This document shows, one piece after another, positions 12,177 to 25,975 of a DNA stretch of 61,587 nucleotides. Where the stretch lies: the IMG/VR virus record IMGVR_UViG_3300043395_002060, positions 1 to 61,587 of that record. One strand, 5' to 3'. The position numbers were made by a program, and so were the translations under genes. Source of the stretch: a virus. Lineage: Duplodnaviria; Caudoviricetes. Every line of letters begins with the position of its first letter. The first letter of the stretch is position 1. The notes beneath the pieces are model-generated. The model did no database searches. It saw only the letters and a list, made by a program, of their open reading frames with translations, and had not been told where the DNA came from.

Positions 12177-12177
12177 A

Positions 12178-12812: not shown

Positions 12813-12856
12813 AATTGTAAATATTTTTGTTTAAAATAAAAATTCGGTCAATATAG

Positions 12857-12928: not shown

Positions 12929-12931
12929 GTA

Positions 12932-13579
12932 TTACATTTCATTATCTTGCGATTCGATAACAGTACTCATATGGTCTGCCCAATGCATTATGTAAGGAAT
13001 TTTATATTTCATTCTCTTACTAATATCAAAAACTTTTAAGTATTTCATATTATCTTCATCATATAAACCATCGGTAAGTTTCATACCAAAATATTCTGCT
13101 TCTGAAAATGTTATACCATAATGCTGAAGAACAAATATAGTTCTATCGGTATGTGTCATATGATGTAATTCCGGATTAGATGCAAAAACTTTACCTTGAT
13201 TCTTAATGTGCCATTCTGAAGGATTTGGAATATAGAATGGTTTACCTTTAGTTCCTAATTTACCTAAATCGTGATGTAATGCAACAAATATTAATTCTTC
13301 ATCAGTAAAGTCTGGCTTACCGCCAAGCTGAATAAATAACTCTTTAACTTTAAGAGCATTTTTACAAACATTAAAAATATGGTCAATGTATCCACCTACA
13401 TAGCAATTATGATAACCCGCATTTCCACTAGCTGGAGCAATTGCAAGATTCATACCTAATTCTTCTTCTGAATACATAAAAAGAAGTTTCTCTAACCTAT
13501 CATCTTTAAAATATTTTTTGATGATGGCAATAAATCTCTCGTAGTTGTCTTTCAGTTCTTTTTCTGTCTTTTGTTTCAT
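12932..13579 (-). CDS. HD-domain phosphohydrolase
   Basis: APAS..YHNCYVGGYIDH, LHHDLGK, HWADH. Confidence 0.88.
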   Translation of the reverse strand: MKQKTEKELKDNYERFIAIIKKYFKDDRLEKLLFMYSEEELGMNLAIAPASGNAGYHNCYVGGYIDHIFNVCKNALKVKELFIQLGGKPDFTDEELIFVALHHDLGKLGTKGKPFYIPNPSEWHIKNQGKVFASNPELHHMTHTDRTIFVLQHYGITFSEAEYFGMKLTDGLYDEDNMKYLKVFDISKRMKYKIPYIMHWADHMSTVIESQDNEM

Positions 13580-13665
13580 AACCTTTATTTTTAAGTTTTA
13601 TTTTAATTCTTTTAGTTTTCAGTGCTGTCTGCTGTCTGCTTTAGAGTAATAATAAAAAGATACCA

Positions 13666-13697
13666 CAAATATACAAAAATTTTTTCAAATTTCCAAA
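13666..13697 (-). promoter_or_regulatory. Bacteroidota-type promoter
   Basis: TTTGG-N19-TATATTTG. Confidence 0.8.
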
Positions 13698-13701
13698 TAT
13701 T

Positions 13702-14025
13702 TTAGAATAAATCTTTTTTTGTTAAGATTTTATATAGAATTTCAACCTCTTCTTCCGATACTAATTCAGGCATATCTTCATCAAAAAGTCGCATTGTATA
13801 TAGGGATACTCCATCTTCGGATTCAAATTCACCCGATTCGGATGACCATAACGCCGGTATTGTATCTAAATTATTTTCTAATTCTTCTTCTGTAACTGAA
13901 AGTAATGGTATTACATAATAGTAAAAATCTTCTCCCAAAGATTCATCTTTCATTTCAATTCGAATGCATGGATTCCATTTATGGAAACTAGCTTCAGTTA
14001 TTGGAGTTTGAGGCACTGTTATCAT
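13702..14025 (-). CDS. hypothetical acidic protein
   Basis: 107-aa ORF. Confidence 0.65.
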   Translation of the reverse strand: MITVPQTPITEASFHKWNPCIRIEMKDESLGEDFYYYVIPLLSVTEEELENNLDTIPALWSSESGEFESEDGVSLYTMRLFDEDMPELVSEEEVEILYKILTKKDLF

Positions 14026-14061
14026 AACCCTAAATATACCAAAAATTATTTAAAATAACAA

Positions 14062-15300
14062 CTATAATAATGATTTATTTGATATTTTAATTCCGTTTCC
14101 AATGATTTCTAAAAAAGAATTTTCATTTTCTATTTTTGATATTAAAGATGTATGGCATTCAATTATCCATTTTTTACATAAATCATAATTGTAATCAAAA
14201 TTTTCTAAAAAATCTTTTACAAATATTGAAAACTTTTTTGCATCTCCTTTGTGATTTACAAATTCATTATAGAACGGATGCGGTGATACGTTTAATATTT
14301 TTTGAATAATATCCAATGGATACGAATGCGTAGATATAAATGGAATTTTCGCCAGTATTAATCCATATGATTTTTCTGAAAGATATTGAGATGTAAAATC
14401 ACCTTTAAACCAAGACCAACTTTCATCTAATATTTGCATTTTTGATAAATTTAAAAATCTAAAAAATACTTCATATTCGACACCCATTTGATAATCCAAT
14501 AATTTTAGATTTTGAAAATCAGATTTACCTTCCAATGTATTTAAATTAATATTTTTAATTTCAGATAATTCTGAATCATATTTATCATAAACTCTATTTT
14601 TAAAAAAACTAGCTCTTTGCAAAAATATATCATCATTATTCAAATATGCCAAATTTTTTAAAATCTCAACCCTATATGGTTTATGCCTTCTAATTGAATA
14701 CATTAATTTATAATCAAAATTTAATTTTTGATAAACCCTACCAAATTCATACCAATATCTAATATTAATTAATTCATTCCACTGCCATAGTGTGTTGGTT
14801 AAAGCAAAGTGGATATTTGGATATGATTTATGTATTTTTTCATTTATAAATAAATTATCCGTTATTATAATATGATTATTTAATTTTGCAATTTGATTTT
14901 CCAAATCAACTATATACGAATCGTTAGTATCTGCTTTATCTAAAATTTTTTCTGTTCTAAACAATGTAATTATCCAACCCGATTTACCTTCTAATAATTT
15001 TATAAATCTTTTTATAAATGGAGTATCTTCGATACCATTACTAACATCTATATCTGAATAGTGTTCGTAAAAATGTCTTTTCCTTAAAGCAGTGAAAAAA
15101 TCCAATAAGTGATAACCATCATCATTATTGTTAAATTCTGGATTAAAAACGAATTCCAAATCAATACTATTATATTTACATTTTACAATACCAATTTTCT
15201 GAAAATTAAAATCGGTTAAATCATATATTCTATCCGTTGTATTATGAGCTAATTTAATAAATAATTCATCCGTAAACCAATGATGTACATAAATTTTCAT
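14062..15300 (-). CDS. GT10-like putative glycosyltransferase
   Basis: ILDES...YLSEKSYGLILAKIPFI motif shared with six other ORFs; ends NKSLL. Confidence 0.55.
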   Translation of the reverse strand: MKIYVHHWFTDELFIKLAHNTTDRIYDLTDFNFQKIGIVKCKYNSIDLEFVFNPEFNNNDDGYHLLDFFTALRKRHFYEHYSDIDVSNGIEDTPFIKRFIKLLEGKSGWIITLFRTEKILDKADTNDSYIVDLENQIAKLNNHIIITDNLFINEKIHKSYPNIHFALTNTLWQWNELINIRYWYEFGRVYQKLNFDYKLMYSIRRHKPYRVEILKNLAYLNNDDIFLQRASFFKNRVYDKYDSELSEIKNINLNTLEGKSDFQNLKLLDYQMGVEYEVFFRFLNLSKMQILDESWSWFKGDFTSQYLSEKSYGLILAKIPFISTHSYPLDIIQKILNVSPHPFYNEFVNHKGDAKKFSIFVKDFLENFDYNYDLCKKWIIECHTSLISKIENENSFLEIIGNGIKISNKSLL

Positions 15301-16001
15301 ATTAATGAGTTTTCAATTGATAATGGATTTGAATTATATTTTTGCTGTCCTACAAAATGAGTATAATGATAATTTGGCTTACCCAATCTGTTTGATAAAT
15401 TTTGTATTTTATAATTTTTAGAAAGTAATGTTAATAAATATTGAGATGTAATAGTACAACACATATAAAAATATTCCATATTATGTTTATTATCATTACA
15501 AAATTGATACATTTTATACCATCTATCCAAATACAAATCTTTTAATTCGGAATTGTTTATTTTAAGTAATCCAATATTGATTACTCTTTGTGATTTATTT
15601 TCCCATTCTGGTATTATATCGCCTATTCCTAAATATGTCAATTCATTTACGCACTTTGAATATAAATCTATCCAACTTTCCCAACCATCAAAATATAAAT
15701 CTACATCAGAATTAAATTCAGGCAATTTTGAGTGAAATATTATATCACCATCTATCAATACGCCATTATTTTTATCCAATAATGGTAATGTTTTAAACCC
15801 ATCCCAAAAAGTAAAAGTAGTATTTATATAATTTGATACATCAACATATTCATCAAATATATTTGTATTTGTATAAATTTCGGTTGCATGTCCATATTTT
15901 TTAGCAGATTTTATACTATTGATGTAATACGATTTTATTACTTCAAATCTATGGGAATCATCTTTGTGTACATTTTTATCAAAAGTATAAATCAAATTCA
16001 T
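15297..16001 (-). CDS. GT-A-like putative glycosyltransferase (DUF6734-like)
   Basis: IDGDI DxD motif, NIGLLK, YTHF; ends ENSLI. Confidence 0.6.
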   Translation of the reverse strand: MNLIYTFDKNVHKDDSHRFEVIKSYYINSIKSAKKYGHATEIYTNTNIFDEYVDVSNYINTTFTFWDGFKTLPLLDKNNGVLIDGDIIFHSKLPEFNSDVDLYFDGWESWIDLYSKCVNELTYLGIGDIIPEWENKSQRVINIGLLKINNSELKDLYLDRWYKMYQFCNDNKHNMEYFYMCCTITSQYLLTLLSKNYKIQNLSNRLGKPNYHYTHFVGQQKYNSNPLSIENSLI

Positions 16002-16732
16002 TATATAATACTTTTATTGAAAATTGAATTAACGTGATTAAAAAACTTTTGTTTAAATTTTGTTTCCGATGCATAATGTGTGTAATCATTAAAATCTTTA
16101 CAAAACTTATAAGTTATTCCCTTTGCTTCCATTACTTTTGGAAAATAATATTCACATACAACAATTGATGGGTCGTTCCAATTCGTTAAATTCTCAAATG
16201 GTTCTATATTTTCTAAATAATATTTACGAAATTTATAATATGAATTTATTAAGATATCTTTTGCTGATTGAGAATTAAATTTTAAAATACCAACATTGGA
16301 TGCATGTAACCCATCATAATCGAAATATTCTATGTTAGATGGAACATCGTATTTTTTAAATATATCCATATATCTTTTGAATTTTTTATTTTTAGTATTC
16401 AAAAGTTTTGTCTCAAATAGAACATCGCAATCGTTTGGTAAATTTAATTTTGACTCCAAAATAACATCACCATCAATCGTAACACAATTTAAATCTTCTT
16501 TTGAGTGTATGAATATTTTCAAATCATCGGTAAGTATGAATTCTTCATTTTCAATACTTACAAATTCATCTATATCATCTTTTAGATTTTCATATATGAA
16601 ATCGCAACCATATAATTTTATAGTATAGCCCAATTGTTTTGCTCTACGCATTGCTGCTTTATAGTATATTACCACCCAATCGTTATCGGTATAATTACCC
16701 ATCTTTGTAGTAAAACTATAAATTAATTTCAT
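16001..16732 (-). CDS. GT-A-like putative glycosyltransferase (DUF6734-like), paralog of 15297..16001
   Basis: IDGDV, NVGILK, YTHY; ends NKSII. Confidence 0.6.
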   Translation of the reverse strand: MKLIYSFTTKMGNYTDNDWVVIYYKAAMRRAKQLGYTIKLYGCDFIYENLKDDIDEFVSIENEEFILTDDLKIFIHSKEDLNCVTIDGDVILESKLNLPNDCDVLFETKLLNTKNKKFKRYMDIFKKYDVPSNIEYFDYDGLHASNVGILKFNSQSAKDILINSYYKFRKYYLENIEPFENLTNWNDPSIVVCEYYFPKVMEAKGITYKFCKDFNDYTHYASETKFKQKFFNHVNSIFNKSII

Positions 16733-17142
16733 TATATTAGATTAACCTTTTCTTTAGCAAATTTATTTACAGTTTCCCAATATGTACTATCTCCATAATA
16801 TGTACAAACTTCTTCGCCAACTTCTATATCTCTTTGTGCTACAAATTCAAACGTTCTATTTTCTTTATTTGTTCTCCAAAAAGCATTATTATTATCTGAA
16901 TGATTATAGATTGCGCCATATCCCAATGGTATTACATATTCTTCAACTTTACCATGCGATGGAAAATTAAATTTATGATTAACTAAAAAAGAATCAAATG
17001 TTCCCAATTTAAATGGAATAGTTAAAAGATGGCATTCTTCTATTATTTCATCTTTTTTTATTGATTCTATTGTAAATACGCCATATCCATGTATTGGAGA
17101 TGTTCTTACTTCTACTTTAGTTGGGGATTTTAATGTAACCAT
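16732..17142 (-). CDS. SET-domain lysine methyltransferase
   Basis: SPIHGYGVF, YNHS..NNA, AQRDIEVGEEVCTYYG. Confidence 0.93.
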   Translation of the reverse strand: MVTLKSPTKVEVRTSPIHGYGVFTIESIKKDEIIEECHLLTIPFKLGTFDSFLVNHKFNFPSHGKVEEYVIPLGYGAIYNHSDNNNAFWRTNKENRTFEFVAQRDIEVGEEVCTYYGDSTYWETVNKFAKEKVNLI

Positions 17143-17528
17143 TATATTATACTTTTATTAACAACTATTTCTTCATCAATATAATCAAAGTTAAATATTT
17201 CATATGACAAAATCAAACTTTCTGGCAAATTAATCAATTTAACTACACTCAAATAATCAACAGTCAATTCAGTATGCTTTGGAATTATTTGATTAGAATA
17301 TAGTTCAATAATATTTTCGTTTTTGATTAATGTTAAATTTGGATTTTCATTATGATTTAAATATCTACCCAATGGATTCGTTTCAATCCACCCATCATAT
17401 ATAGGTCTACTTTCGGATGTAACCAATTCATTTTTTGTAAAATAAAAACCTATTAATTTGTTAGATGGGATGAATTCGGTTGATATAACACCCGTACCTC
17501 TACTTTTAAAGTTATATAAGGAATACAT
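17142..17528 (-). CDS. SET-domain protein (second, divergent)
   Basis: RGTGV, GRYLNHNENPN, ELTVDY. Confidence 0.85.
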   Translation of the reverse strand: MYSLYNFKSRGTGVISTEFIPSNKLIGFYFTKNELVTSESRPIYDGWIETNPLGRYLNHNENPNLTLIKNENIIELYSNQIIPKHTELTVDYLSVVKLINLPESLILSYEIFNFDYIDEEIVVNKSII

Positions 17529-18031
17529 TAAATGATTGATTTAGTCATATTTAAATTTTCTTCTCTTAAAAATAACACCATCGATAATCTTTCGCCTGAT
17601 ATTAATTTTGTAACTTCATGCGGTGTTGTTGGATTTATAATTGATAATGAACCTTGTTCTCTCGACGCAATTTCTTTACCAACTATTAAATCACCGCCTT
17701 CATATTCATTTGAATCACTTAATTGAATTAAATATGTTTTATAGATTATATCAACTCCATACTTTGAAAAATCAGTATGTCGTGCTAAATTATCACCCTT
17801 TTGATAACGCATAAATTTAACCAATGGGATTGATTTAACACCCCATTGGTTTAACTTATTTTCTAAAAATTTGATTAATTCTTCGTTTTTAGTCGAAGTA
17901 TATTTGGCAGATGAATTACTAAATTTTAATTTTACACCACCATAATTCTGAACATCATCCGATGATTCTTCCAAATCGATATTATAAAATCCCTTAATAT
18001 ACTCACACTCATCTTTAGTGAATACAACCAT
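17528..18031 (-). CDS. 2OG-Fe(II) oxygenase (prolyl 4-hydroxylase-like)
   Basis: Y..GD...HTD, QLS...YEGGDL, HEV....GER. Confidence 0.92.
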   Translation of the reverse strand: MVVFTKDECEYIKGFYNIDLEESSDDVQNYGGVKLKFSNSSAKYTSTKNEELIKFLENKLNQWGVKSIPLVKFMRYQKGDNLARHTDFSKYGVDIIYKTYLIQLSDSNEYEGGDLIVGKEIASREQGSLSIINPTTPHEVTKLISGERLSMVLFLREENLNMTKSII

Positions 18032-18046
18032 AACCTATTTGTTTAA

Positions 18047-18184
18047 TTACATATGCTTTGCCTTAAAGTAAGCAATGAAATTAGAAACAATTTCTGAAAT
18101 CTTTTGCTTTTGTGTTGCGGTTGTTGCCGTTACACCCTTATTAGCCAAATCAGCTTTTGTAAAAGTTTTATATACGTTTGCCAT
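18047..18184 (-). CDS. 45-aa Lys/Thr-rich peptide (not in ORF track)
   Basis: MANVYKTFTKADLANKGVTATTATQKQKISEIVSNFIAYFKAKHM; fills the gap between the Hint gene and the oxygenase. Confidence 0.7.
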   Translation of the reverse strand: MANVYKTFTKADLANKGVTATTATQKQKISEIVSNFIAYFKAKHM

Positions 18185-18191
18185 TTTAAAA

Positions 18192-20456
18192 TTATTTATT
18201 ATGAACTAATATTCCGTTTGCGTAAAAATTATGGTTATCTTCAACAGTAAAGATATATGTTTGAGTATCCCCTAAATCCATTTCAACAATATCTTTAATA
18301 GCCGTTTGTGATTTTGATTCATTTACAAATACTAAATCACCTACTTTTATTTGTCTAACATCTTTTCCAATATTATATCTACTATTTGTTAAGAATGGAG
18401 CGTAAGATGCTAATTCACCATTTCCACCTGCTACAAAGAATGGGTGGTCATATGTACATATAATTTCAGTTTGATTAGCAAATACATATTTAACCATATC
18501 ATCATGTATTGGAGTTTTTACACCAACAACTTTTTTAGATTCGTTTTCTATTCCGTTAAATGATAATACTTCATCACCAATAACAACATCTTCAATATTC
18601 TTTTCAGAACCATCTGCCATTGTTACTTTAGTTCCGGCTACAAAACAAGAACCTCCACCATATTTAAAATTATGAACCAATATACCTTCTGCAAAATATG
18701 TGTGATTATCTTTAACATCTAAAATGTGATACACTTCCACTTCACCACTCAAATCTTGTCTATCTACAATTACTGATTCTGATTTATCTTTCTTAATTAC
18801 AATATCGCCTTTTAAGATATCTTGCGCTGCTACCCAACCTTTTCCTTTGATATAGAATTTATGTAAAGGAGTTGATTTAACAACTGAACCATCACCTGTT
18901 TCTAATTGAATTAATAAGAATTCTTTTTTCTTTAAAATATTTCCAATAGAACCTTCTGCTAAAACACCTGTTTTTTCGTTGTAAGTTAATAACTTATCAT
19001 CGGTTGTTAAATCTTCAATGTTCTTTTCAGTACCATCTGCTAAAGTAATTTTAGTTCCAGCTGGGAAACAGTTGTGTGTTACAATTTTAACACTTAATTC
19101 ACCATTATATAAGAAGTAAGTATCACTTGATTCAACGTCAATAATGTGAGTATGATAATCTCCATCTAAAATTTCACCAATTACCGATTGGATTTCGACT
19201 ACACCACCATTCAAATTGATAAGTTTGTGTTTGGTTTCATCTATTTCAGAAATAGTTTCGTATCTTAATACATCTTTTTCAATATCATAAATCAATAAGT
19301 GTGCTCCACCCGATGCTCTAAAATCAGAGCCATCTACCATTGTTATGTGAAATATAGTATTATTTGATAATTCTTGCTGAATATTATTTACAACAACTGA
19401 AGATGTTTCATATGAACCTGATGGTAAATCAGAACCACCAAAAGACCATTGCATGAATTCCGAAACAACATCAGTATCAGGCGCACCTTCTATAAAATAA
19501 GATTTCAAAGATGTACCAACCGATGCACTACATATTAATACAGGCGTACCATCTTCTTTAACGATTGATTCCTCTTCAAAAATACCACCCCAGTTATTAA
19601 CAGTTGCAAATTTAGGATAATTAGTTGTTAATTCATAATAATGTTTAATATTTGATTGATTAACAAATTGCTCATCATTAAATTCGATAGATGTTGGTTT
19701 TTCAAATAATCCTTCATTTATAAAGCTACCAAATGTAATTACATCCAAATTAGAACCATAAATAGCATTTACAGAACGAATACTTTTAACTTTAGTATCG
19801 GCAGGATTTTCATAAAACTTTATCAACAAATTATTTTCGGGAAAAGATGCCTTTAAACCATCATATCTCGATACTTCGGATAAATTTGAATATCCTATTT
19901 TGACAAATTTAATAGAACTATTAACGTTTGCGTTTAAATCTTTAACAGCCACATCCGGCATTGTAGATGAATTAAATTCTAATGGTAATATATCAGTAAC
20001 ACCCGTTACAGATGATGAAACATAGTATTCAACAATTGAACCGCTATCTCCATTTGAATTAAATAAATCTAAAGGAGCTAATTTATTTTTTGCATATTCC
20101 GAATCAAAAATAGCTGATTCATCATAAGCCAATCTTAAAATAAATTTATTATCCGAATCAGCAATAGTATTTGGATATATAGTTGTATCTTCTTCTAAAT
20201 GATTTTGAAAAAGAGTTATAAACGATGCATTATCTGCTATACTTTGAGATAAAGCATTTATAAATCCACTTTGAAATGATTTAGATATAGTATGTACTTC
20301 GGTTATAGAATTTTGATTCAATACATCAATAAACGATGTAAAATCTAAATTAGTTAAACCACCCGGCGCTATAGCTGTATCGGTATTTATTTCCATTAAA
20401 CGAAGATTTCCATTAACATCTTCGATGAAATCCATTGAAAAAAGAGTTCCTTTCAT
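18192..20456 (-). CDS. protein with N-terminal ATP-grasp-like motif and three tandem Hint (intein-like) domains
   Basis: CFPAGTKITLADG...VHN and CFVAGTKVTMADG...VHN, plus an in-register degenerate GIFEEESIVKEDG...THN; N-terminal MDF...LRLMEINT. Confidence 0.85.
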   Translation of the reverse strand: MKGTLFSMDFIEDVNGNLRLMEINTDTAIAPGGLTNLDFTSFIDVLNQNSITEVHTISKSFQSGFINALSQSIADNASFITLFQNHLEEDTTIYPNTIADSDNKFILRLAYDESAIFDSEYAKNKLAPLDLFNSNGDSGSIVEYYVSSSVTGVTDILPLEFNSSTMPDVAVKDLNANVNSSIKFVKIGYSNLSEVSRYDGLKASFPENNLLIKFYENPADTKVKSIRSVNAIYGSNLDVITFGSFINEGLFEKPTSIEFNDEQFVNQSNIKHYYELTTNYPKFATVNNWGGIFEEESIVKEDGTPVLICSASVGTSLKSYFIEGAPDTDVVSEFMQWSFGGSDLPSGSYETSSVVVNNIQQELSNNTIFHITMVDGSDFRASGGAHLLIYDIEKDVLRYETISEIDETKHKLINLNGGVVEIQSVIGEILDGDYHTHIIDVESSDTYFLYNGELSVKIVTHNCFPAGTKITLADGTEKNIEDLTTDDKLLTYNEKTGVLAEGSIGNILKKKEFLLIQLETGDGSVVKSTPLHKFYIKGKGWVAAQDILKGDIVIKKDKSESVIVDRQDLSGEVEVYHILDVKDNHTYFAEGILVHNFKYGGGSCFVAGTKVTMADGSEKNIEDVVIGDEVLSFNGIENESKKVVGVKTPIHDDMVKYVFANQTEIICTYDHPFFVAGGNGELASYAPFLTNSRYNIGKDVRQIKVGDLVFVNESKSQTAIKDIVEMDLGDTQTYIFTVEDNHNFYANGILVHNK

Positions 20457-20482
20457 ATTTTATTGTTTGAATTATTTCTTAT

Positions 20483-20490
20483 ATAAATAT
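20483..20490 (-). promoter_or_regulatory. putative phage late-promoter motif ATATTTAT
   Basis: ATAYTTAT recurs closely upstream of starts at 3078, 12359, 20483, 23662, 49738, 52692. Confidence 0.45.
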
Positions 20491-20516
20491 GTGTTTTTGA
20501 TTTTAAACTACCATAT

Positions 20517-20747
20517 TTATTCTACTTTATCCCACTTCTTTAAATCACACGTTCCTTTTTTTGGTGTAAATATTTTCTTACCTATCGGACACCCACATTC
20601 ATTACATTTATAAGTAAATACAACGGATTCTACCATAGAATCGCAAGTTGTACATATGGATAATCTTTTTTGAGCAAGTTTATTCTGCTCAAGCGTTGGA
20701 TTGCTCGCTATTTTCCAAGCGGCGTATATTTCTTTTATATCTATCAT
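20517..20747 (-). CDS. small Cys-rich metal-binding protein
   Basis: RLSICTTC...CNECGC...K......CDLKKW. Confidence 0.7.
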   Translation of the reverse strand: MIDIKEIYAAWKIASNPTLEQNKLAQKRLSICTTCDSMVESVVFTYKCNECGCPIGKKIFTPKKGTCDLKKWDKVE

Positions 20748-21060
20748 TTTTCTTCTTTTCAATATATTTCATTATACGAATTATATCTTTACACATTTCA
20801 TACTGCTCCCTATCTATTAGGGTATTCTTTATCCATTCTAAAACTTCGACATATTCTTCTTTAGTAAACATAACATATGCCGGAATTCCTTCGAATCTAA
20901 ACATAATTAGTTCGTTGGCGTTTTTATTTCCCTTAAAATTATCGATTAATGTAATAATTGTTGAAAGGTTATCATTTGATAAATGTACACGATTTACATA
21001 ATCAAACCAATTGAGTCTGATATAGCCCTTTTCTAAAGTTTGTAGGAATTTACTGTTCAT
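20689..21060 (-). CDS. hypothetical protein with UVR-like helical motif
   Basis: EQYEMCKDI, similar to EEYEKCSKI in 37865..38164. Confidence 0.6.
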   Translation of the reverse strand: MNSKFLQTLEKGYIRLNWFDYVNRVHLSNDNLSTIITLIDNFKGNKNANELIMFRFEGIPAYVMFTKEEYVEVLEWIKNTLIDREQYEMCKDIIRIMKYIEKKKNDRYKRNIRRLENSEQSNA

Positions 21061-21109
21061 AACGGAGAGGATAGTATATTAGTATATACATATATATACT
21101 AAATTAAAA

Positions 21110-21742
21110 TTATCCGATACCCACATATTTTTCCGTTTTTATTTTAGAAATACACCATTGAGCAAAATCACATTGCCCTCTTTCCGACCAATGATAATCC
21201 ATTATTTTATCATTCGTTTCATCGCTTATTCGTTCATATGTTATTTTTGGAATGCCCCAATCATAATCAGACCAAGTTGAATTTATAAAGATATTTGATT
21301 TAAAAGTATGCTTTAATAGATTTATCCAATTTTGAACTTCTTTTTTATAAAGAATATGATTTCTATTAACAAATATCTCATTAATAGTTCTTTCGCTTAT
21401 TTCATTTGGTATCAGATTATCCTTTTGTTTTAATTCGAAACTACCCGGTTGTATCGAAACCCATTTATCCAATCGGTGATTTACTAATCTAAATCTACTT
21501 AATCCACTCCATAAAATAATAACAATATCATTTTCTCCAATGGAATTCACATTTTGACAAACCGATTCAAATATATCAGCATTGGAAAATCCTGCTTTAG
21601 CAAAGTTAAAAGACTTGATTCCTAACTCTTCTGAAATTATTTCTGAATAGGTTTTTGGTATATATCCTTTCCATATGGAATAGGGTGAATTGGTTTTCCA
21701 ATTTTCGCTAAAAGAATCCCCAAATACAAATAATCTTTTCAT
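21110..21742 (-). CDS. SGNH/GDSL-like protein
   Basis: FGDSF, NFAKAGFSN, WS...R, DYHWSERG; related to 5975..6751. Confidence 0.7.
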   Translation of the reverse strand: MKRLFVFGDSFSENWKTNSPYSIWKGYIPKTYSEIISEELGIKSFNFAKAGFSNADIFESVCQNVNSIGENDIVIILWSGLSRFRLVNHRLDKWVSIQPGSFELKQKDNLIPNEISERTINEIFVNRNHILYKKEVQNWINLLKHTFKSNIFINSTWSDYDWGIPKITYERISDETNDKIMDYHWSERGQCDFAQWCISKIKTEKYVGIG

Positions 21743-21906
21743 AGGATTAAATATCATCGAACAACCAAAACATTAATCTAACCCCTAAAATCAGAGCTAT
21801 AATAAATAATCCACATAAGATGATTACCTCTAACATTTGGTGGGGGGTTGGGGGGCCAGTCGTTTTTTAAAGAAATTTTTTTCTTATCTCTATTGATAGA
21901 ACCTAT

Positions 21907-22170
21907 TTATTTTCGTTTTAAGCGATTCCACTTCCAATTGGGATAATATACCATAAATCCCAAAATGAGCAAAATTAACCCCAAAAGAATGAACGGAATC
22001 ATCATTACGCCCATTATTATGTTAAATAGGAATTTTAAAGTGAGTTGTATATACCCACTACCCCTACTATTAACCAAAATACGTTTAATAAAATGTAAGG
22101 TCGGTTGTCTCTTTCCCATGCGCAATAAGTTAAAATGCCGGCATCGATGGTATTCCATATCCACATCCAT
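21907..22170 (-). CDS. small membrane protein (true start probably internal)
   Basis: hydrophobic C-terminal half with basic tail. Confidence 0.35.
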   Translation of the reverse strand: MDVDMEYHRCRHFNLLRMGKRQPTLHFIKRILVNSRGSGYIQLTLKFLFNIIMGVMMIPFILLGLILLILGFMVYYPNWKWNRLKRK

Positions 22171-22301
22171 AAAAATGGAGTATCTTTATTTAAAATAGAT
22201 AGCGTACCAAAAGCAAGAACTCTCATTACCACTCCTATTCCTTCCAATAATTCCAATGTCTTATCGGACTTGATTAATTTTCCTTTAGATTGTTGTTTCA
22301 T
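22035..22301 (-). CDS. small multi-TM protein
   Basis: three hydrophobic segments. Confidence 0.6.
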   Translation of the reverse strand: MKQQSKGKLIKSDKTLELLEGIGVVMRVLAFGTLSILNKDTPFLWMWIWNTIDAGILTYCAWERDNRPYILLNVFWLIVGVVGIYNSL

Positions 22302-22307
22302 AAACTA

Positions 22308-23366
22308 TTATTTTTGTTGTACAGCTCCTTTTTGAATTTCTCTAACAAAGTTATCCCATCCTCCCTTTTGTTGAACATAGGATGTAATACCACCCGCTTC
22401 GGAGATTTTCTCATTCAAACTCTTTTGAGTGGTTTTTAGGGCATCGGTTTCTATTTTAAGTGCTTCAGCGGATTTCTTTGCCAATTGTTGTGTTGCTTCC
22501 GTTTGAGCATCTACCGCAATATCTTTAGGGGTTTGTTCTACCACTTTAACTGCGGTTGCGGAATCCGTTATGAATGAATCTACGGATTGTTCCTCATCGA
22601 TAGTTTGAGCAACGACCCTTTCGAATTTCTTAACACCAACGGATGGTGGGGTATCTCCTTTATAGAAAGTATTTTTAATTGCAGTGAAATCGGCATTTAA
22701 TAGATTTAGACGGGAATTGATTTCCTTTAAAAAGGTATCCAATTTCTTTTGGTCAAACTTACCATCTTCTTGCGCAGTAGCAACGTTTATAGGTTCAATC
22801 GAATAAGCCGATGGATTGGCAAGTTTCCAATCCCATATAGCAAATGAATCGCCCCTTTTATCTATCCCATCGGTTAGTGTCCAATCGATTTGGTTAATAA
22901 GGTTAATAGGAACTCCTCCTTCCTTCTCACCTTCGAATAACCACTCAACGGATTCGACACCCGCAAAAGAATTAGTATTCTTCATCTTTTTAGAAGAAGT
23001 AACAAGCCCATTAGTATCTAATGTCAGTATAGGGATAGTCTTACCTATGGTTACTGATTTATCCTTTATAGTGATAGAACCATTAGATAGTATAGAGAAG
23101 TGTGGGTTCTGAAACTCCTTTATAGAATCCAAAGTCTTTTGAGAACATAAGTATTCACCTGAAGATAGGGATACGATAACCGAATCCGTCTTTAATAGGG
23201 GTTTAAGGATATCCTCCGATTGAAACTTACCTAATGGAAACTCCAATGGTTTTATTTCACCTCCCTTATTAGAGTTGGGTGAATCCGCAATAGAACTCAC
23301 CTTAAAGGTCTCTTCTCCTATACTATACCTTTGTGGGTTGTTCGTTATATTTTTCGATGATATCAT
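22308..23366 (-). CDS. hypothetical protein
   Basis: 352-aa ORF. Confidence 0.7.
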   Translation of the reverse strand: MISSKNITNNPQRYSIGEETFKVSSIADSPNSNKGGEIKPLEFPLGKFQSEDILKPLLKTDSVIVSLSSGEYLCSQKTLDSIKEFQNPHFSILSNGSITIKDKSVTIGKTIPILTLDTNGLVTSSKKMKNTNSFAGVESVEWLFEGEKEGGVPINLINQIDWTLTDGIDKRGDSFAIWDWKLANPSAYSIEPINVATAQEDGKFDQKKLDTFLKEINSRLNLLNADFTAIKNTFYKGDTPPSVGVKKFERVVAQTIDEEQSVDSFITDSATAVKVVEQTPKDIAVDAQTEATQQLAKKSAEALKIETDALKTTQKSLNEKISEAGGITSYVQQKGGWDNFVREIQKGAVQQK

Positions 23367-23634
23367 TAAATGCTTTCTTATATATAGTTACTTCCTTTAT
23401 ATTCTTTCTACTCTTTTGAGATATTCGATAAACCTCTCTTTGGAACTCCTTATACTTACCCTCATCAATCATATACATAATCATTCCATTCATAGCAGAT
23501 TCATCTTTATCCCGTTTATCCCACTTTTCGGTTATTGATACCCCATCTTCTACCCAAGGGCCGAATATATGTGCCACTCCTATTGATGTTCCAAACTCTT
23601 CCGATATCCATTCAAATACTGAATCTCTTAACAT
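23323..23634 (-). CDS. hypothetical protein
   Basis: 103-aa ORF downstream of promoter at 23680. Confidence 0.55.
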   Translation of the reverse strand: MLRDSVFEWISEEFGTSIGVAHIFGPWVEDGVSITEKWDKRDKDESAMNGMIMYMIDEGKYKEFQREVYRISQKSRKNIKEVTIYKKAFNDIIEKYNEQPTKV

Positions 23635-23679
23635 ATCTCTCTTTCGTTTAAAAGTTCTCTTATAAATATATACGTTCTA

Positions 23680-23711
23680 CAAAGATACGAAAATTAATTC
23701 ACAATTCCTAA
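23680..23711 (-). promoter_or_regulatory. Bacteroidota-type promoter
   Basis: TTAGG-N19-TATCTTTG. Confidence 0.65.
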
Positions 23712-24090
23712 TAGATTTTAAATCGGCTAAGTCCCACTTATAGGGGGTTTAAAGGGGGTTATAGGACGCCTAGTGTATCACACTACTATATAAAAAAGGG
23801 TTTCCACAGCGAAAAAACCGGGCTCGGTATTTAAGCGTACCCGACCCGGCGTGAGCACACGTCCGCTTTCTCGCTTTACGTGAAATTCAGTTGGGGGGGG
23901 GGTCTACCGTTAAGGCATAAGAAAGCCCGTAACTCGCTAAAGCTACGGGCGGATTGTGTTGTAGTTAGATGTTTATCTAATTACTTATTTAACTAACCTT
24001 CTAAATACTATACTATGTTGTTCTTCTTATATACTATATGTTGTTATGTATATACTATACTAGCTGATTTTATTTTTATTAGTGTCCGCA

Positions 24091-24321
24091 CTATGCTTGT
24101 GCAATAGGTGGGTTTAGGATTAGTGATTCCTTTAGATACTCATCTTGCTCAGCTTCAAACGCCTCCGCTTCCTGCTCTATCAGTTTGATTACCTTTAGTG
24201 CGGAACGTAGTTCATTCAAGCGTTTACTGGCTTCCCACTTTGGTTTACCATCTCTCATTGCTCTAATGCGTTTCATAAGGACCGCCTCCGCTTTCTCTAA
24301 TACTACAATTGCTTCATTCAT
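24091..24321 (-). CDS. hypothetical protein
   Basis: 76-aa ORF coupled to upstream gene. Confidence 0.6.
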   Translation of the reverse strand: MNEAIVVLEKAEAVLMKRIRAMRDGKPKWEASKRLNELRSALKVIKLIEQEAEAFEAEQDEYLKESLILNPPIAQA

Positions 24322-24324
24322 ATA

Positions 24325-24729
24325 CTATCTATTTAATTTGTGTTTAATACTTGCCCATAGGGTAGGGTAGTGTTCGTTCTCTGCTCTTATCGCTTCCTTC
24401 TCATAGGGGTTATTCCTATACCCAGTCCTAGCTAATGATTCATCATACTTACTCATCGTTTGTAGCTGATGTTGCCATTCGTGTATGATTGTCTTAATGA
24501 ATTCTTTTATGCTAGGGGTATTGTTATAATATACTATAATCTCGTTGTCCCAATACCTATACTCACCCATATCCTCATCCCCTTCCATGCTCTTATAGAA
24601 CGTAACTACTACATCGTACTTCTTTCTACTATTCACTCCCATATTCCTTCTACACCATGTCTCAGCCATTCTGCCGATGCGTAACGCCTCCGCTCTGCTT
24701 GATATAGGTGATTTCAATGTATATTTCAT
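24325..24729 (-). CDS. zincin-like metallopeptidase
   Basis: TIIHEWQH and NPYEKEA. Confidence 0.8.
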   Translation of the reverse strand: MKYTLKSPISSRAEALRIGRMAETWCRRNMGVNSRKKYDVVVTFYKSMEGDEDMGEYRYWDNEIIVYYNNTPSIKEFIKTIIHEWQHQLQTMSKYDESLARTGYRNNPYEKEAIRAENEHYPTLWASIKHKLNR

Positions 24730-24746
24730 TCAAATAGTTTTAAAAT

Positions 24747-24777
24747 AAAAAGAGTGGCTGTTCGGTACAGCCACCCT
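24747..24777 (-). terminator. intrinsic terminator
   Basis: GGGTGGCTG/CAGCCACTC hairpin followed by TTTTT. Confidence 0.75.
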
Positions 24778-24852
24778 TCAAGTGGTAAACGCTTGTTGTA
24801 AATGTAAATCAATCAATCAATCAGAGAATAACCAAATATACCGAATGCGTTG

Positions 24853-24923
24853 AGCGGTGGGGCAGAATCGAACTACCTCCTTCGACCTGGACGGCCATTG
24901 TGCTACCGGAACACTTCCACCGC
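24853..24923 (-). tRNA. atypical tRNA-Gly(TCC)
   Basis: GCGGTGG/CCACCGC acceptor, U73, GGTAG-TTCGATT-CTGCC T arm; loop CG-TCC-AG. Confidence 0.65.
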
Positions 24924-24952
24924 TTATAGGGGGCGACCTCACCCCCGTTGGA

Positions 24953-25114
24953 TTACTTCACTGCTGAAGTGTCTGCTGCTGGAGCCGCTGTTGTATCAAC
25001 TGCTACTGCTGCTGTATCAACTGCTGTTGAATCAGCTTTAGCTTCAGTTGAAGCGTTACCACCACATGACATTAACCCTACGGTCACCAATACTGCTAAT
25101 AGTACCTTTTTCAT
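24953..25114 (-). CDS. 53-aa lipoprotein (not in ORF track)
   Basis: MKKVLLAVLVTVGLMS-C lipobox followed by Ala/Asp/Thr-rich tail. Confidence 0.8.
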   Translation of the reverse strand: MKKVLLAVLVTVGLMSCGGNASTEAKADSTAVDTAAVAVDTTAAPAADTSAVK

Positions 25115-25143
25115 TGTTTATTGTTTTAGTTTTAAATATAATA

Positions 25144-25175
25144 CAAATATACGAAATTATTTCGATATATACAAG
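25144..25175 (-). promoter_or_regulatory. Bacteroidota-type promoter
   Basis: CTTG-N20-TATATTTG. Confidence 0.7.
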
Positions 25176-25251
25176 CCTTTCGGCAATTATTTTTTAGTTA
25201 AATAGTGGGACCGGCTATATTGGTATCCACCACCGGTCCCTCTATATGATA

Positions 25252-25515
25252 TTATGCTAACATTGCCTTCTTCACCTCTCTCGCCTTCTTCAATGAAGTT
25301 GCGAACTCTGATTGACCAGCTACTCTCACTCTATAAGATACCTTACCACTTCCGTAAGTAATCTTTTGAATGTTAGATACTACAGTCTCATAAGATGTAC
25401 TGCGCTTAGCAGCCTTACGAGTTGTTTTACCTTTAGCAGGTGTGAAGTTAATGTTGTTACCTTTAGCACTCTTAAAAGTAACTGTCTTAGCGGTTTTGTT
25501 TGACTTTGTAGCCAT
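25252..25515 (-). CDS. small basic putative nucleic-acid-binding protein
   Basis: Lys/Thr/Ala-rich N-terminus, SYRVRV motif. Confidence 0.7.
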   Translation of the reverse strand: MATKSNKTAKTVTFKSAKGNNINFTPAKGKTTRKAAKRSTSYETVVSNIQKITYGSGKVSYRVRVAGQSEFATSLKKAREVKKAMLA

Positions 25516-25588
25516 TTTGTTTAAATTTTAATCCAGCGTAGTTGAATAGAGGTCTACGCCTTCACCTCATTATTAATGTTGATTTATA

Positions 25589-25620
25589 CAAATATACGAC
25601 AATTTTTCCGAATTGCCAAA
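25589..25620 (-). promoter_or_regulatory. Bacteroidota-type promoter
   Basis: TTTGG-N19-TATATTTG. Confidence 0.8.
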
Positions 25621-25672
25621 TATTTTCTAGTCTATTTAGAAAATAATTTATAACTCATTGATAACCAATGAA

Positions 25673-25963: not shown

Positions 25964-25975
25964 ATCGTTTATGTT

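What the first reader, a model, noticed from the sequence alone, without database searches (positions are those of the whole stretch)
18192..19586. Three back-to-back Hint domains that could excise and activate the heptapeptide FKYGGGS
Seen: Hint1 (19586-19071) aligns in register with the others but has Gly instead of Cys1; it ends HN and its +1 residue is Cys1 of Hint2. Hint2 (19070-18669) runs C...HN and is followed by FKYGGGS (18668-18648). Hint3 (18647-18198) runs C...HN followed by K-stop. None has an endonuclease insert. Known: Asn cyclisation frees the downstream N-terminus and Cys1 forms a thioester with the preceding residue. Inference: Hint2 frees Phe while Hint3 holds the peptide as a Ser-thioester, allowing head-to-tail cyclisation or transfer to a nucleophile. 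This is not the layout of a selfish intein.
Basis: partly seen in the sequence, partly recalled or inferred. Interest (0 to 1): 0.85.

Follow-up and report, generated by a model that had tools for sequence, protein, structure and literature searches.

The report
Phage ligase with stacked Hint domains
An uncultured aquatic phage encodes an ATP-using ligase fused to one half-disabled and two intact intein-like self-cutting domains, and the seven residues between the intact ones are a variable spacer rather than a hidden peptide product.

Summary
ORF 18192-20456 (-) encodes 754 aa ending Hint1 (Gly291...HN462), Hint2 (Cys463...HN596), FKYGGGS, Hint3 (Cys604...HN753), Lys, stop.

The proposed purpose is not supported. 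In 182 Hint-Hint junctions from 258 unique relatives the spacer is 1-36 aa, has 122 different sequences, and is 3 aa or shorter in 53. In the fold it is disordered. Relatives carry one, two or three intact Hints in shuffled combinations. Others carry none and have a short or Cys-rich tail instead. Hint3 has a different history from the rest of the protein (AU tests, p 4.5e-53 and 1.6e-15).

Residues 1-290 fold like the E. coli YgiC/YjfC ligases, which are ATP-grasp enzymes of the glutathionylspermidine-synthetase family. Hint1 can at most cut after its own Asn. A 45-aa gene 7 nt downstream follows the gene in 78 of 80 related loci. It is predicted to clamp the ligase to Hint1. Five of the six enzyme genes that follow end in [KNS]-x-[LIV]-[LIV]; the sixth ends K-V-N-L-I.

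Hint2 and Hint3 are closest to A-type bacterial intein-like (BIL) domains. My best reading is that they are self-excising cassettes in a hypervariable tail that always ends in Lys.

This scan has met the same family before on other DNA, in at least 17 genomes. My seven literature searches found no paper on it.

The parts
18192..20456 (-). Whole gene, 754 aa: ligase domain, half-Hint, two intact Hints, terminal Lys
   Evidence: 1184 relatives at E<=1e-3 among the 8000 candidates scored. 107 related IMG/VR loci.
19587..20456 (-). Residues 1-290: ATP-grasp amide-ligase domain of the glutathionylspermidine-synthetase type. It starts at the D..LxExNTDT motif.
   Evidence: AlphaFold2 model pLDDT 87.1, pTM 0.80. 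The top four Foldseek hits in the PDB are YgiC, YjfC and trypanothione synthetase (E 3.2e-6 to 4.4e-5); the fifth hit has E 0.064. hhalign places residues 8-27 on YgiC 101-121. There is no Pfam or PDB hit by sequence.
19071..19586 (-). Hint1, residues 291-462: degenerate Hint with Gly at position 1 and no block-B Thr-x-x-His register, but terminal His-Asn kept
   Evidence: hhalign against Hint2. Gly291 104/104, His461 103/104, Asn462 104/104. The fold is a beta-rich domain with block means of pLDDT mostly between 68 and 94.
18669..19070 (-). Hint2, residues 463-596: intact A-type BIL-like Hint (cluster 'A')
   Evidence: Pfam PT-HINT 1.6e-15. phmmer to C. thermocellum BIL 2lwy 1.5e-8. Catalytic residues 104/104.
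18648..18668 (-). FKYGGGS, residues 597-603: variable junction spacer
   Evidence: pLDDT below 50 for residues 597-602. Linker statistics.
18198..18647 (-). Hint3, residues 604-753: intact BIL-like Hint (cluster 'B'), exchanged between lineages
   Evidence: Pfam Intein_splicing 9.8e-17. phmmer to Tetrahymena BIL2 6tmm/6y75 about 7e-9. Foldseek 1.3e-11, TM 0.84. AU tests.
18192..18197 (-). Lys754 and the stop codon. A terminal Lys is a family-wide feature.
   Evidence: Lys754 104/104. 227 of 227 short tails contain Lys and 216 of them start with it.
18047..18184 (-). 45-aa partner gene. It starts 7 nt after the stop of the Hint gene.
   Evidence: A like ORF of 43-53 aa follows in 78 of 80 loci. 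Tyr5 is invariant; Lys6 and His44 are at least 90% conserved. The predicted complex with residues 1-462 scores 0.87 against a best control of 0.00.
17528..18031 (-). 2OG-Fe(II) oxygenase ending ...TKSII
   Evidence: Pfam 2OG-FeII_Oxy_3 7.7e-8. A homologue starts 147-191 nt after the Hint gene's stop in 29 of 80 loci. Tag.
17142..17528 (-). SET-domain protein ending ...NKSII
   Evidence: Pfam SET 5.5e-9; tag.
16732..17142 (-). SET-domain protein ending ...KVNLI
   Evidence: Pfam SET 2e-11; tag.
16001..16732 (-). 243-aa protein of no known family, ending ...NKSII
15297..16001 (-). 234-aa protein of no known family, ending ...ENSLI
14062..15300 (-). 412-aa protein of no known family, ending ...NKSLL

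Best explanation
The gene encodes the central protein of a phage-only module.

- **Ligase domain.** Residues 1-290 are an ATP-grasp amide ligase of the glutathionylspermidine-synthetase (YgiC/YjfC) type.
- **Hint1.** Residues 291-462 are a Hint domain that has lost its N-terminal nucleophile but kept its terminal His-Asn. It can at most cut the bond after Asn462.
- **Partner.** A 45-aa protein encoded 7 nt downstream is predicted to clamp these two domains together.
- **Tail.** Everything after Asn462 is a hypervariable tail. In relatives it is a few residues, a Cys-rich peptide of 26-68 aa, or one to three intact Hint domains. It ends in Lys or has Lys within its last few residues: 227 of 227 short tails behind intact Hints contain Lys, and 58 of 59 Cys-rich tails have Lys in the last three residues.

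In this phage the tail is Hint2-FKYGGGS-Hint3-Lys. Hint2 and Hint3 are A-type BIL-like autoprocessing domains.

Inferred, not shown: after translation each forms a thioester at its Cys1 and cyclises its terminal Asn, and so cuts itself out. The flanks are then either hydrolysed or joined through the amine of the flanking Lys, as shown for the closest solved relative, Tetrahymena BIL2. What remains is the mature ligase/half-Hint core with a short Lys-bearing tail.

FKYGGGS is the spacer at the junction of two such cassettes. It came in with the Hint3 cassette and is not a selected peptide product.
For: Architecture and catalytic residues.

Linker:
- It is not conserved. 74 distinct linkers occur among 104 aligned relatives.
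- 182 junctions span 1-36 aa with 122 distinct sequences, and 53 are 3 aa or shorter.
- The only segments of the full-length fold with pLDDT below 50 are 459-462 and 597-602.

Intact Hints are optional and shuffled:
- Of 258 unique proteins of at least 580 aa, 57 have one intact-Hint match, 172 two, 26 three and 3 none.
- The cluster combinations include A-B 73, A-A 31, B 17, A 13, D-B-B 13, C 10, A-C 9, D-A-B 2 and D-B-A 2.
- Core-only members of 460-490 aa end in HN plus a short tail.
- 59 of 59 unique core-only relatives found with alignment A3 carry a tail with at least 4 Cys, and 58 of 59 have Lys in the last three residues.

Cassette exchange:
- Hint3 data reject the 12-row clade of the core tree (p-AU 4.5e-53).
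- Core data reject the Hint3 clade WIN+P0013+P0015+P0016 (p-AU 1.6e-15).
- Hint3 is 92% identical to that of P0015, whose core is 60% identical.

BIL type:
- Cys1 433/433, His-Asn 432/433, and the +1 residue is never Cys.
- The closest solved structures are BIL2 (6y75, Foldseek 1.3e-11) and C. thermocellum BIL (2lwy, 4.3e-10).
- BIL domains lack a +1 nucleophile and mainly give cleaved products (PMC7664689, passages).
- BIL2 forms a Lys-epsilon isopeptide with the C-terminus of its N-flank (PMC8616854, section 2.4 read in full).

Ligase fold: and the weak Atlas leads.

Partner:
- It follows the gene in 78 of 80 loci.
- The complex model scores 0.87 against a best control of 0.00. That mark was reached by 58 of 80 solved complexes and 2 of 110 mismatched pairs.
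- The runs agree in at least 96% of contacts and the partner's pLDDT is at least 89.
Against: - No cleavage, splicing or ligase activity has been measured for any member. All the chemistry is inferred from residue conservation and from relatives.
- Perfect conservation of the catalytic residues in 433 intact Hints is what a self-excising passenger needs. It is equally what a domain that works for the phage would show.
- The conserved basic residue after each intact Hint (Lys 254 and Arg 60 of 433 at +1; Lys or Arg in the first two linker positions in 170 of 182) and the terminal Lys are not explained by simple parasitism.
- 48 of 182 linkers have Arg but no Lys. Joining through a Lys cannot be general for internal junctions.
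- Hint2 is largely co-inherited with the core in the subset tested (p-AU 0.040 only).
- There is no homing endonuclease to explain mobility.
- The ligase assignment rests on fold (TM 0.33-0.46) and one motif. hhalign to YgiC gives only 10% probability, and Pfam and PDB sequence searches found nothing.
Confidence: 0.6

Rival explanations
1. Conjugation device of the BUBL type. The thioester formed at Cys1 of an intact Hint is not simply hydrolysed. It is passed to a Lys amine of another protein, such as a virion or host protein, the partner, or one of the tagged enzymes. The polypeptide upstream of the Hint (the ligase/half-Hint core, or Hint2 plus linker) becomes covalently attached to that target without ATP. 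Arrays of Hints would give several single-use transfers.
For: - The closest solved relative of Hint3 is Tetrahymena BIL2. BIL2 conjugates the domain on its N-side to Lys residues of substrates (PMC8616854, section 2.4).
- The catalytic residues are strictly conserved.
- A Lys follows the last Hint: 216 of 227 short tails start with Lys and all 227 contain it.
Against: - Core-only relatives keep the partner gene without any intact Hint (all 63 unique loci), so the core-and-partner unit does not need one. Tagged neighbour enzymes were not examined in those loci.
- The number, order and type of the Hints are shuffled.
- Hint3 is exchanged between lineages.
- No target is known.
Confidence: 0.15
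2. The tail is a ribosomal peptide product. Hint1 releases the C-terminal tail by Asn cyclisation. The ATP-grasp ligase and the tagged enzymes (oxygenase, SET methyltransferases and others) then modify it, as in a RiPP pathway whose leader is the enzyme itself. In this phage the product would be the remnant FKYGGGS plus Lys, after the BIL cassettes have left.
For: - Tails are Cys-rich with a regular Cys pattern in 59 of 59 unique core-only relatives.
- The terminal Asn of Hint1 is conserved: 104/104 and 12/12.
- The gene sits in a cluster of modifying enzymes.
- Lys lies at or near the end of nearly every tail examined.
Against: - Tails in the window's own subfamily can be a single Lys (161 of the 251 tails that follow the last intact Hint). 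Some core-only members have tails of only 1-8 residues.
- No product has been detected.
- The tagged enzymes are equally explained as clients docking on a hub.
Confidence: 0.12
3. Hint2 frees Phe597 and Hint3 holds Ser603 as a thioester, so that FKYGGGS is cyclised head-to-tail or transferred as an activated acyl peptide. This peptide would be the purpose of the arrangement.
For: - Both catalytic sets are intact, and the linker is flexible in the model.
- From my own recall, not from any call: intein halves flanking a peptide can cyclise it (SICLOPPS), and BIL domains can ligate without a side-chain nucleophile (the title of Aranko 2013, as listed in the references of PMC7664689).
Against: - Linkers are 1-36 aa with 122 distinct sequences among 182 junctions, and 53 are 3 aa or shorter.
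- Close relatives show Gly-run length polymorphism.
- 57 of 258 proteins have a single intact-Hint match and so have no inter-Hint peptide at all.
- The linker travels with an exchanged cassette.
Confidence: 0.05
4. The Hints do not process at all. They serve as folded binding or spacer modules at the end of the ligase.
For: None directly. No processing has been observed for any member.
Against: Cys1 is kept in 433 of 433 and His-Asn in 432 of 433 intact Hints, while the rest of the domain diverges to about 31% identity. Block-B Thr and His are also kept in Hint2 and Hint3: Thr529, His532 and His671 104/104, Thr668 102/104. That pattern is hard to explain without catalysis.
Confidence: 0.03

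Closest known systems
A-type bacterial intein-like (BIL) domains, e.g. Clostridium thermocellum BIL (PDB 2lwy)
   Same: Hint fold of mini-intein size. Cys1, block-B Thr-x-x-His and terminal His-Asn are present. There is no +1 Cys/Ser/Thr and no endonuclease. The domains sit in a variable region rather than in a conserved site of an essential enzyme. Foldseek 4.3e-10 with TM 0.91 on the target; phmmer 1.5e-8 to Hint2.
   Different: Here the domains come in arrays of one to three, directly behind a third, half-disabled Hint, at the very end of an ATP-grasp ligase. Almost nothing lies downstream, only a Lys. They are encoded by phages.
BIL2 of the Tetrahymena thermophila BUBL1 polyubiquitin-like locus (PDB 6y75, 6tmm)
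   Same: This is the best structural and sequence match to Hint3 (Foldseek 1.3e-11, TM 0.84; phmmer about 7e-9). Like this gene, the locus is a polyprotein with Hint domains between short units. Its mechanism uses a Lys amine of the C-flank (PMC8616854, section 2.4), and here a Lys follows the last Hint.
   Different: In BUBL the units between the Hints are folded ubiquitin-like domains, which are the cargo. Here the units are spacers of 1-36 residues, and 48 of 182 of them have no Lys.
Glutathionylspermidine-synthetase family of ATP-grasp ligases: E. coli YgiC/YjfC (PDB 7uk8, 7uk6, 7uka) and trypanothione synthetase (2vps)
   Same: These are the only significant fold matches of residues 1-290. 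The D...LLExNxDT motif is shared. RefSeq names YgiC a peptide--spermidine ligase, and PMC12568646 calls YgiC and YjfC peptidylpolyamine synthetases (passage).
   Different: The phage domain begins about 95 residues into YgiC, so it lacks that N-terminal part. There is no detectable sequence-family membership. It is fused to Hint domains and paired with a 45-aa protein. Its substrates are unknown.
Class 2 inteins (e.g. Methanococcus jannaschii KlbA), which lack the N-terminal nucleophile
   Same: Hint1 has a non-nucleophilic first residue (Gly291), a terminal His-Asn and, in this phage, Cys at +1. That is the class 2 pattern as described in PMC7664689 (passages).
   Different: The Cys is not at +1 across the family. 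The junction between Hint1 and the first intact Hint has length 0 in 118 of 246 proteins, and is otherwise 1-29 residues. In Cys-rich tails the first Cys is at +2 in 54 of 59. Hint1 is a permanent, conserved part of the protein and is contacted by the partner. It is not an insertion.
Hedgehog/Hog autoprocessing proteins
   Same: A functional N-terminal domain is followed by a Hint domain at the C-terminus. PDB 1at0 is among the fold matches (E 1.2e-5).
   Different: In Hedgehog the Hint's Cys1 cleaves off and lipidates the N-domain. Here the Hint next to the N-domain has Gly at that position, so that reaction is not possible.

Membership tests
A-type BIL domain (Hint2, Hint3) | Hint fold with blocks A, B, F and G | tested here: met
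   Pfam Hint-clan hits from 1e-17 to 1e-11. Foldseek to 2lwy and 6y75 with TM 0.84-0.91 on the target.
A-type BIL domain (Hint2, Hint3) | N-terminal Cys/Ser nucleophile and C-terminal His-Asn | tested here: met
   Cys463, Cys604, Asn596 and Asn753 are each 104/104. Family-wide, Cys1 is 433/433 and HN 432/433.
A-type BIL domain (Hint2, Hint3) | No nucleophilic +1 residue (feature as stated in PMC7664689) | tested here: met
   The +1 residue is Phe597 after Hint2 and Lys754 after Hint3. Family-wide it is never Cys, and is Ser 9 and Thr 2 of 433.
A-type BIL domain (Hint2, Hint3) | No homing endonuclease; located in variable protein regions (feature recalled from Amitai 2003, which I did not read) | tested here: met
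   The domains are 134 and 150 aa. They sit in a tail that varies from 1 residue to three Hints.
A-type BIL domain (Hint2, Hint3) | Autocatalytic N- and C-terminal cleavage | not testable with these tools
   Needs expression and mass spectrometry.
Classical (class 1) intein | +1 Cys/Ser/Thr, and insertion in a conserved site of a host protein whose function needs splicing | tested here: not met
   The +1 residues are Phe and Lys. The downstream 'extein' is a 7-residue spacer or a single Lys.
Class 2 intein (Hint1) | Non-nucleophilic residue 1, with Cys at +1 that attacks the N-terminal junction | tested here: inconclusive
   In this protein the pattern is met (Gly291, Cys463). Cys is at +1 in only 118 of 246 family junctions.
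Glutathionylspermidine-synthetase-type ATP-grasp (Pfam GSP_synth) | Sequence match to the family model | tested here: not met
   Pfam finds 0 families at E<=1 for residues 1-290. The PDB profile search gives no YgiC/YjfC hit at E<=10. hhalign to YgiC gives 10% probability.
Glutathionylspermidine-synthetase-type ATP-grasp (Pfam GSP_synth) | Fold | tested here: met
   The four best PDB matches are all from this family (E 3.2e-6 to 4.4e-5, probability 0.99-1.00, TM 0.33-0.46). The next match has E 0.064.
Glutathionylspermidine-synthetase-type ATP-grasp (Pfam GSP_synth) | Metal-binding E-x-N motif and conserved basic and acidic residues | tested here: inconclusive
   Asp9, Glu22, Asn24, Lys59, Arg108, Lys172, Lys186 and Arg227 are invariant in 40 sequences. 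The motif aligns to YgiC LLENNADT. The roles I give these residues are recalled, not tested.
Glutathionylspermidine-synthetase-type ATP-grasp (Pfam GSP_synth) | ATP-dependent carboxylate-amine ligation | not testable with these tools
   Needs an enzyme assay.

The most novel reading that the evidence does not exclude
The ligase and the Hints work together as a new ATP-driven protein-tagging machine.

1. Hint1 cuts after Asn462 and exposes the N-terminal Cys of the next Hint, or the first residues of a Cys-rich tail.
2. The ATP-grasp domain ligates the free C-terminus of a client onto that new amine. The client would be one of the neighbouring enzymes that share the ...K-x-[LI]-[LI] end.
3. The intact BIL domain converts the new bond into a thioester and passes the client to a Lys, as BIL2 does for ubiquitin-like domains.

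On this reading the tandem Hints are single-use carriers, not passengers, and the shared end-tag is the ligase's recognition signal.
Probability: 0.08. Interest if true: 0.92.

Novelty: new variant of a known kind. Interest (0 to 1): 0.66.

Why it matters
- **For Hint biology.** Hint domains are known as selfish inteins, as Hedgehog-type lipidation devices, as toxin-releasing PT-HINT modules and, in ciliates, as ubiquitin dispensers. This gene shows a further natural context: arrays of BIL-type Hints stacked behind a nucleophile-less Hint on an ATP-grasp ligase, in a family that looks confined to uncultured aquatic phages. I found 238 clusters at 50% identity and more than 400 IMG/VR loci in two searches. 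No hit to the ligase domain or to most of Hint1 (residues 1-457) appeared in 50,697 GenBank phage records.
- **For the unresolved questions.** The family offers a natural series: no Hint, a Cys-rich tail, and one, two or three Hints. That series could show how Hint cassettes spread without endonucleases. It could also show whether Hint chemistry has been coupled to ATP-dependent ligation.
- **For annotation.** Short peptides caught between tandem Hints should not be read as products without comparing homologues.

Tried and rejected
- **Near-identical DNA in GenBank phages.** None was found for window 10000-30000.
- **Sequence-family assignment of residues 1-290.** Pfam, phmmer and a profile against PDB sequences and the BFVD viral structure library (0 matches at E<=0.001) gave nothing. 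Only the PDB fold search did.
- **A missing N-terminal piece of the ligase encoded upstream.** Rejected. The two upstream ORFs (20517-20762 and 20689-21060) have homologues in only 14 and 13 of 80 loci, and these are not at a fixed distance.
- **T4-type late promoter TATAAATA upstream of the gene.** None on the coding strand. The window has 8 matches against 20.5 expected.
- **Other Hint-bearing genes in this 61.6-kb record.** None.
- **Cellular hosts.** One scan of 185,579 species genomes gave a single true match, a 2.8-kb contig binned with a Cyanobium MAG. That is too little to name a host.
- **Lys-only joining at every junction.** Rejected as a general rule, because 48 of 182 linkers have Arg and no Lys.
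- **Correction to my notes.** They say the oxygenase sits directly downstream in 'about 33 of 80' loci. A recount gives 29 of 80.
- **Rows dropped before counts.**
  - A1 holds 104 of the 120 proteins listed. I left out those shorter than about 700 aa or longer than 800 aa.
  - One search used only unique proteins of at least 580 aa that start with Met (258).
  - Searches counted only Hint matches that cover the whole profile and start after residue 430.
  - Searches used 37 of the 73 A-B proteins, for speed.
- **Literature.** Seven full-text searches found no paper that describes an ATP-grasp-Hint fusion. The 2009 amidoligase survey by Iyer and colleagues, which I recall, is not held and could bear on this. 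Supplementary files were not consulted.


Full report
**The observation.** Window 18192-20456 on the minus strand is one open frame of 754 codons. A domain starts at Gly291 and ends His461-Asn462. Then comes Cys463...His595-Asn596, then FKYGGGS (597-603), then Cys604...His752-Asn753, then Lys754 and the stop.

Pfam recognises the last two domains as Hint-clan domains: Intein_splicing 9.8e-17, PT-HINT 1.6e-15, Hom_end_hint 5.8e-14 and Hint 2.7e-11. It does not see the first one. Profile-profile comparison of family alignments does: Hint1 against Hint2 gives 93.9% probability and E 1.6e-7, while the control of the N-domain against Hint2 gives 0.1%.

**The family.** The protein is not a singleton.
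- A word-indexed search found 1184 relatives at E<=1e-3 among the 8000 candidates scored.
- An exhaustive search with residues 1-462 found 238 clusters at 50% identity.
- IMG/VR holds 107 loci of the window's subfamily and 309 of a more distant one. I kept the best 80 of each.
- In 50,697 GenBank phage records only the two intact Hints find anything, namely ordinary inteins in helicase or terminase genes at about 30% identity. Nothing matches residues 1-457.
- One scan of 185,579 species genomes gave a single true match on a 2.8-kb contig.
- The window itself is an IMG/VR virus record estimated 32% complete. Its baseplate wedge protein is 41% identical to that of Microcystis phage Mel-JY01 and 37.5% to Flavobacterium phages. 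It is therefore a fragment of a large aquatic myovirus.

- In 104 aligned relatives there are 74 different linkers of 2-21 residues. FKYGGGS occurs 12 times. Close relatives differ mainly in the length of the Gly run, from FKYGS to FKYGGGGGGS. Others have Pro-rich linkers.
- Over 258 unique proteins, the 182 junctions between intact Hints are 1-36 residues long with 122 distinct sequences. 53 are 3 residues or shorter and 9 are 12 or longer.
- The only conserved property is a basic residue in the first two positions (170 of 182). 126 linkers contain Lys, 48 contain only Arg and 8 contain neither.
- In the full-length AlphaFold2 model (pLDDT 85.6, pTM 0.59) the only segments below pLDDT 50 are 459-462 and 597-602, which are the two junctions.

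A defined heptapeptide product is therefore not what selection maintains.

**Variable number and order of Hints.** The profile of intact Hints matches once in 57 proteins, twice in 172, three times in 26 and not at all in 3. I clustered the Hints by single linkage at 50% identity or more. The clusters combine freely: A-B (the window's type) 73, A-A 31, B 17, A 13, D-B-B 13, C 10, A-C 9, D-A-B 2, D-B-A 2, B-B 1 and so on.

Members with no intact Hint exist. Proteins of 460-490 aa end in His-Asn plus K, AKSY, KVKIEPPK, PAPPPKL and the like. In the distant subfamily, all 59 unique core-only proteins carry a tail of 26-68 residues after His-Asn with at least four Cys. The first Cys is at +2 in 54 of them, and 58 have Lys in the last three residues.

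So the constant part is residues 1-462. Everything after Asn462 is a hypervariable tail that almost always ends in, or close to, Lys. All 227 short tails behind a last intact Hint contain Lys, and 216 start with it. Lys754 is 104/104.

**History of the cassettes.** Within the 73 A-B proteins, the window's nearest relatives by core are P0003-P0005 (up to 78% identity). By Hint3 they are P0015 (92%) and P0013, whose cores are 60-62% identical.

In a 37-row subset the results were as follows.
- Hint3 data reject the 12-row clade of the core tree (delta lnL 297.6, p-AU 4.5e-53).
- Core data reject the Hint3 clade WIN+P0013+P0015+P0016 (delta lnL 349.3, p-AU 1.6e-15).
- Hint2 is nearly congruent with the core (p-AU 0.040).
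- The exact string FKYGGGS is shared with P0015 and P0016 but not with the nearest-core relatives. The spacer therefore came with the Hint3 segment.

**What kind of Hints these are.** Of 433 complete intact Hints, 433 start with Cys and 432 end in His-Asn. The residue after the Asn is Lys 254, Phe 60, Arg 60, Tyr 19, Leu 10, Ser 9, Val 5, Ile 5, Trp 4, Ala 4, Thr 2 and Gln 1. It is never Cys.

The closest solved proteins are BIL2 of the Tetrahymena BUBL1 locus and the C. thermocellum BIL domain.
- BIL2 (6y75, 6tmm): Foldseek 1.3e-11 with TM 0.84; phmmer about 7e-9 to Hint3.
- C. thermocellum BIL (2lwy): Foldseek 4.3e-10 with TM 0.91; phmmer 1.5e-8 to Hint2.

According to the passages I read in PMC7664689, BIL domains lack the +1 nucleophile and give mainly cleaved products. 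According to section 2.4 of PMC8616854, which I read in full, BIL2 joins the C-terminus of the domain on its N-side to a Lys epsilon-amine without ATP. Hint2 and Hint3 meet every sequence-level criterion of A-type BIL domains. Their activity is inferred.

**Hint1.** It has an invariant Gly at position 1 and lacks the Thr of the block-B Thr-x-x-His register. The aligned His386 is present in 91 of 104 and is not conserved in the distant subfamily. The terminal Asn is kept (104/104 and 12/12). Hint1 can therefore at most cut after its own Asn. This resembles class 2 inteins in this one protein, which has Cys at +1. Across the family, however, the Cys is at +1 in only 118 of 246 junctions.

**The N-domain.** Folded from a 40-sequence alignment (pLDDT 87.1, pTM 0.80), it matches only E. 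coli YgiC and YjfC and Leishmania trypanothione synthetase in the PDB. The E-values are 3.2e-6 to 4.4e-5 and the TM-scores 0.33-0.46. The next hit has E 0.064.

hhalign is weak (10% probability) but puts the N-terminal D..LxExNTDT motif on YgiC residues 101-121. The phage domain thus corresponds to about the last 290 of YgiC's 386 residues. RefSeq names YgiC a peptide--spermidine ligase. A language-model search gave weak leads to the same superfamily (scores 0.81-0.83). I treat the fold as established and the family membership and substrates as open.

**The partner and the neighbours.** A 45-codon ORF (18047-18184) starts 7 nt after the stop of the gene. An ORF of 43-53 aa starts 1-31 nt after the stop in 78 of 80 loci, and in all 63 unique loci of the distant subfamily. 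In the 51 aligned partners of the window's subfamily Tyr5 is invariant, and Lys6 and His44 are at least 90% conserved.

A complex model of residues 1-462 with the partner scores 0.87 against a best control of 0.00. That mark was reached by 58 of 80 solved complexes and 2 of 110 mismatched pairs. The runs agree in at least 96% of contacts and the partner's pLDDT is at least 89.

In that model, partner residues 3-8 pair with Hint1 residues 426-431, and the partner's helix lies on the ligase domain. The ligase residues that touch it alternate with the invariant ones (8, 10, 12 against Asp9; 226, 228 against Arg227). I read this, as an inference, as binding on the back of the sheet. That would make the partner a clamp rather than a substrate.

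The next six genes are a 2OG-Fe(II) oxygenase, two SET-domain proteins and three proteins of no known family. They end in TKSII, NKSII, KVNLI, NKSII, ENSLI and NKSLL. In the window, 7 of 67 minus-strand ORFs of at least 100 aa end in [KNS]x[LIV][LIV], against 0.73 expected from composition. In 52 unique related loci a strict form of the tag ends 112 of 485 downstream ORFs and 23 of 342 upstream ORFs. An oxygenase homologue lies directly behind the partner in 29 of 80 loci.

**Reading.** The best-supported account (0.6) has four parts.
- Residues 1-462 plus the partner are the working unit of a phage-only module.
- The tail is a tolerant site.
- Hint2 and Hint3 are BIL-type self-excising cassettes lodged in that tail.
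- FKYGGGS is their junction spacer.

What this account does not explain is the strict terminal Lys, the basic residue after every intact Hint, and the Cys close to Hint1's Asn in both subfamilies. These keep alive the functional readings: BUBL-like conjugation (0.15), a released and modified tail peptide (0.12), and a coupling of ATP-dependent ligation to Hint chemistry (0.08, my most novel reading).

**Novelty.** Earlier notes of this scan describe the same family on other DNA in at least 17 genomes, with the same main conclusions. I re-derived each point here on this window's own gene. My own seven literature searches found no description of an ATP-grasp-Hint fusion. One survey that I recall could not be read.

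Noticed in passing
window 18047-18184 (-): A 45-aa ORF sits between the Hint gene and the oxygenase gene. It is conserved in position and motif in 78 of 80 related loci and is predicted to bind the ligase/Hint1 core.
   Followed up: yes
window 14062-18031 (-), also 5975-6751 (-) and 36783-37868 (-): Five of six consecutive enzyme genes end in [KNS]-x-[LIV]-[LIV]; the sixth ends K-V-N-L-I. Two more genes elsewhere in the window carry the tag. In all, 7 of 67 ORFs match against 0.73 expected.
   Followed up: partly
loci L082-L161 (relatives; e.g. L126:5001-6464 and others): In a larger, more distant subfamily the half-Hint is followed not by intact Hints but by a peptide of 26-68 aa. It has a regular six-Cys pattern (C-x-C ... 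C-x2-C), with Lys within its last three residues in 58 of 59. It looks like a releasable Cys-rich peptide.
   Followed up: partly
proteins P0080, P0095, P0104 and loci L010, L040, L042, L046, L056: Some relatives replace the last Hint by a different Hint-like domain that ends ...SGLGDN. It is followed by a tail of about 20 aa ending in ...GII, ...KHL or ...NHL, which echoes the enzyme end-tag and the C-terminus of the partner.
   Followed up: no
window 20517-20762 (-) and 20689-21060 (-): Two ORFs directly upstream overlap by 74 nt in different frames. One is an 81-aa Cys-rich protein that looks like a zinc ribbon; the other is a 123-aa protein. Each has homologues in 13-14 of 80 loci, in the same tandem order where present.
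   Followed up: partly
window 16732-17528 (-): Two adjacent SET-domain (lysine methyltransferase fold) genes lie in a phage, next to a protein family whose conserved terminal residue is Lys.
   Followed up: no
window 6748-8445, 9384-10022, 10158-11069, 12432-12812 (-): Auxiliary genes in the same strand block: a Nol-like carbamoyltransferase, a peptide deformylase, a UvdE UV endonuclease and an Hsp20.
   Followed up: no
partner residues 4-6 (window 18167-18175) and linker residues 597-599 (18660-18668): The partner's conserved N-terminal [VIL]-Y-K motif resembles the [FY]-K-(Y) start of many inter-Hint linkers. This may be coincidence.
   Followed up: no
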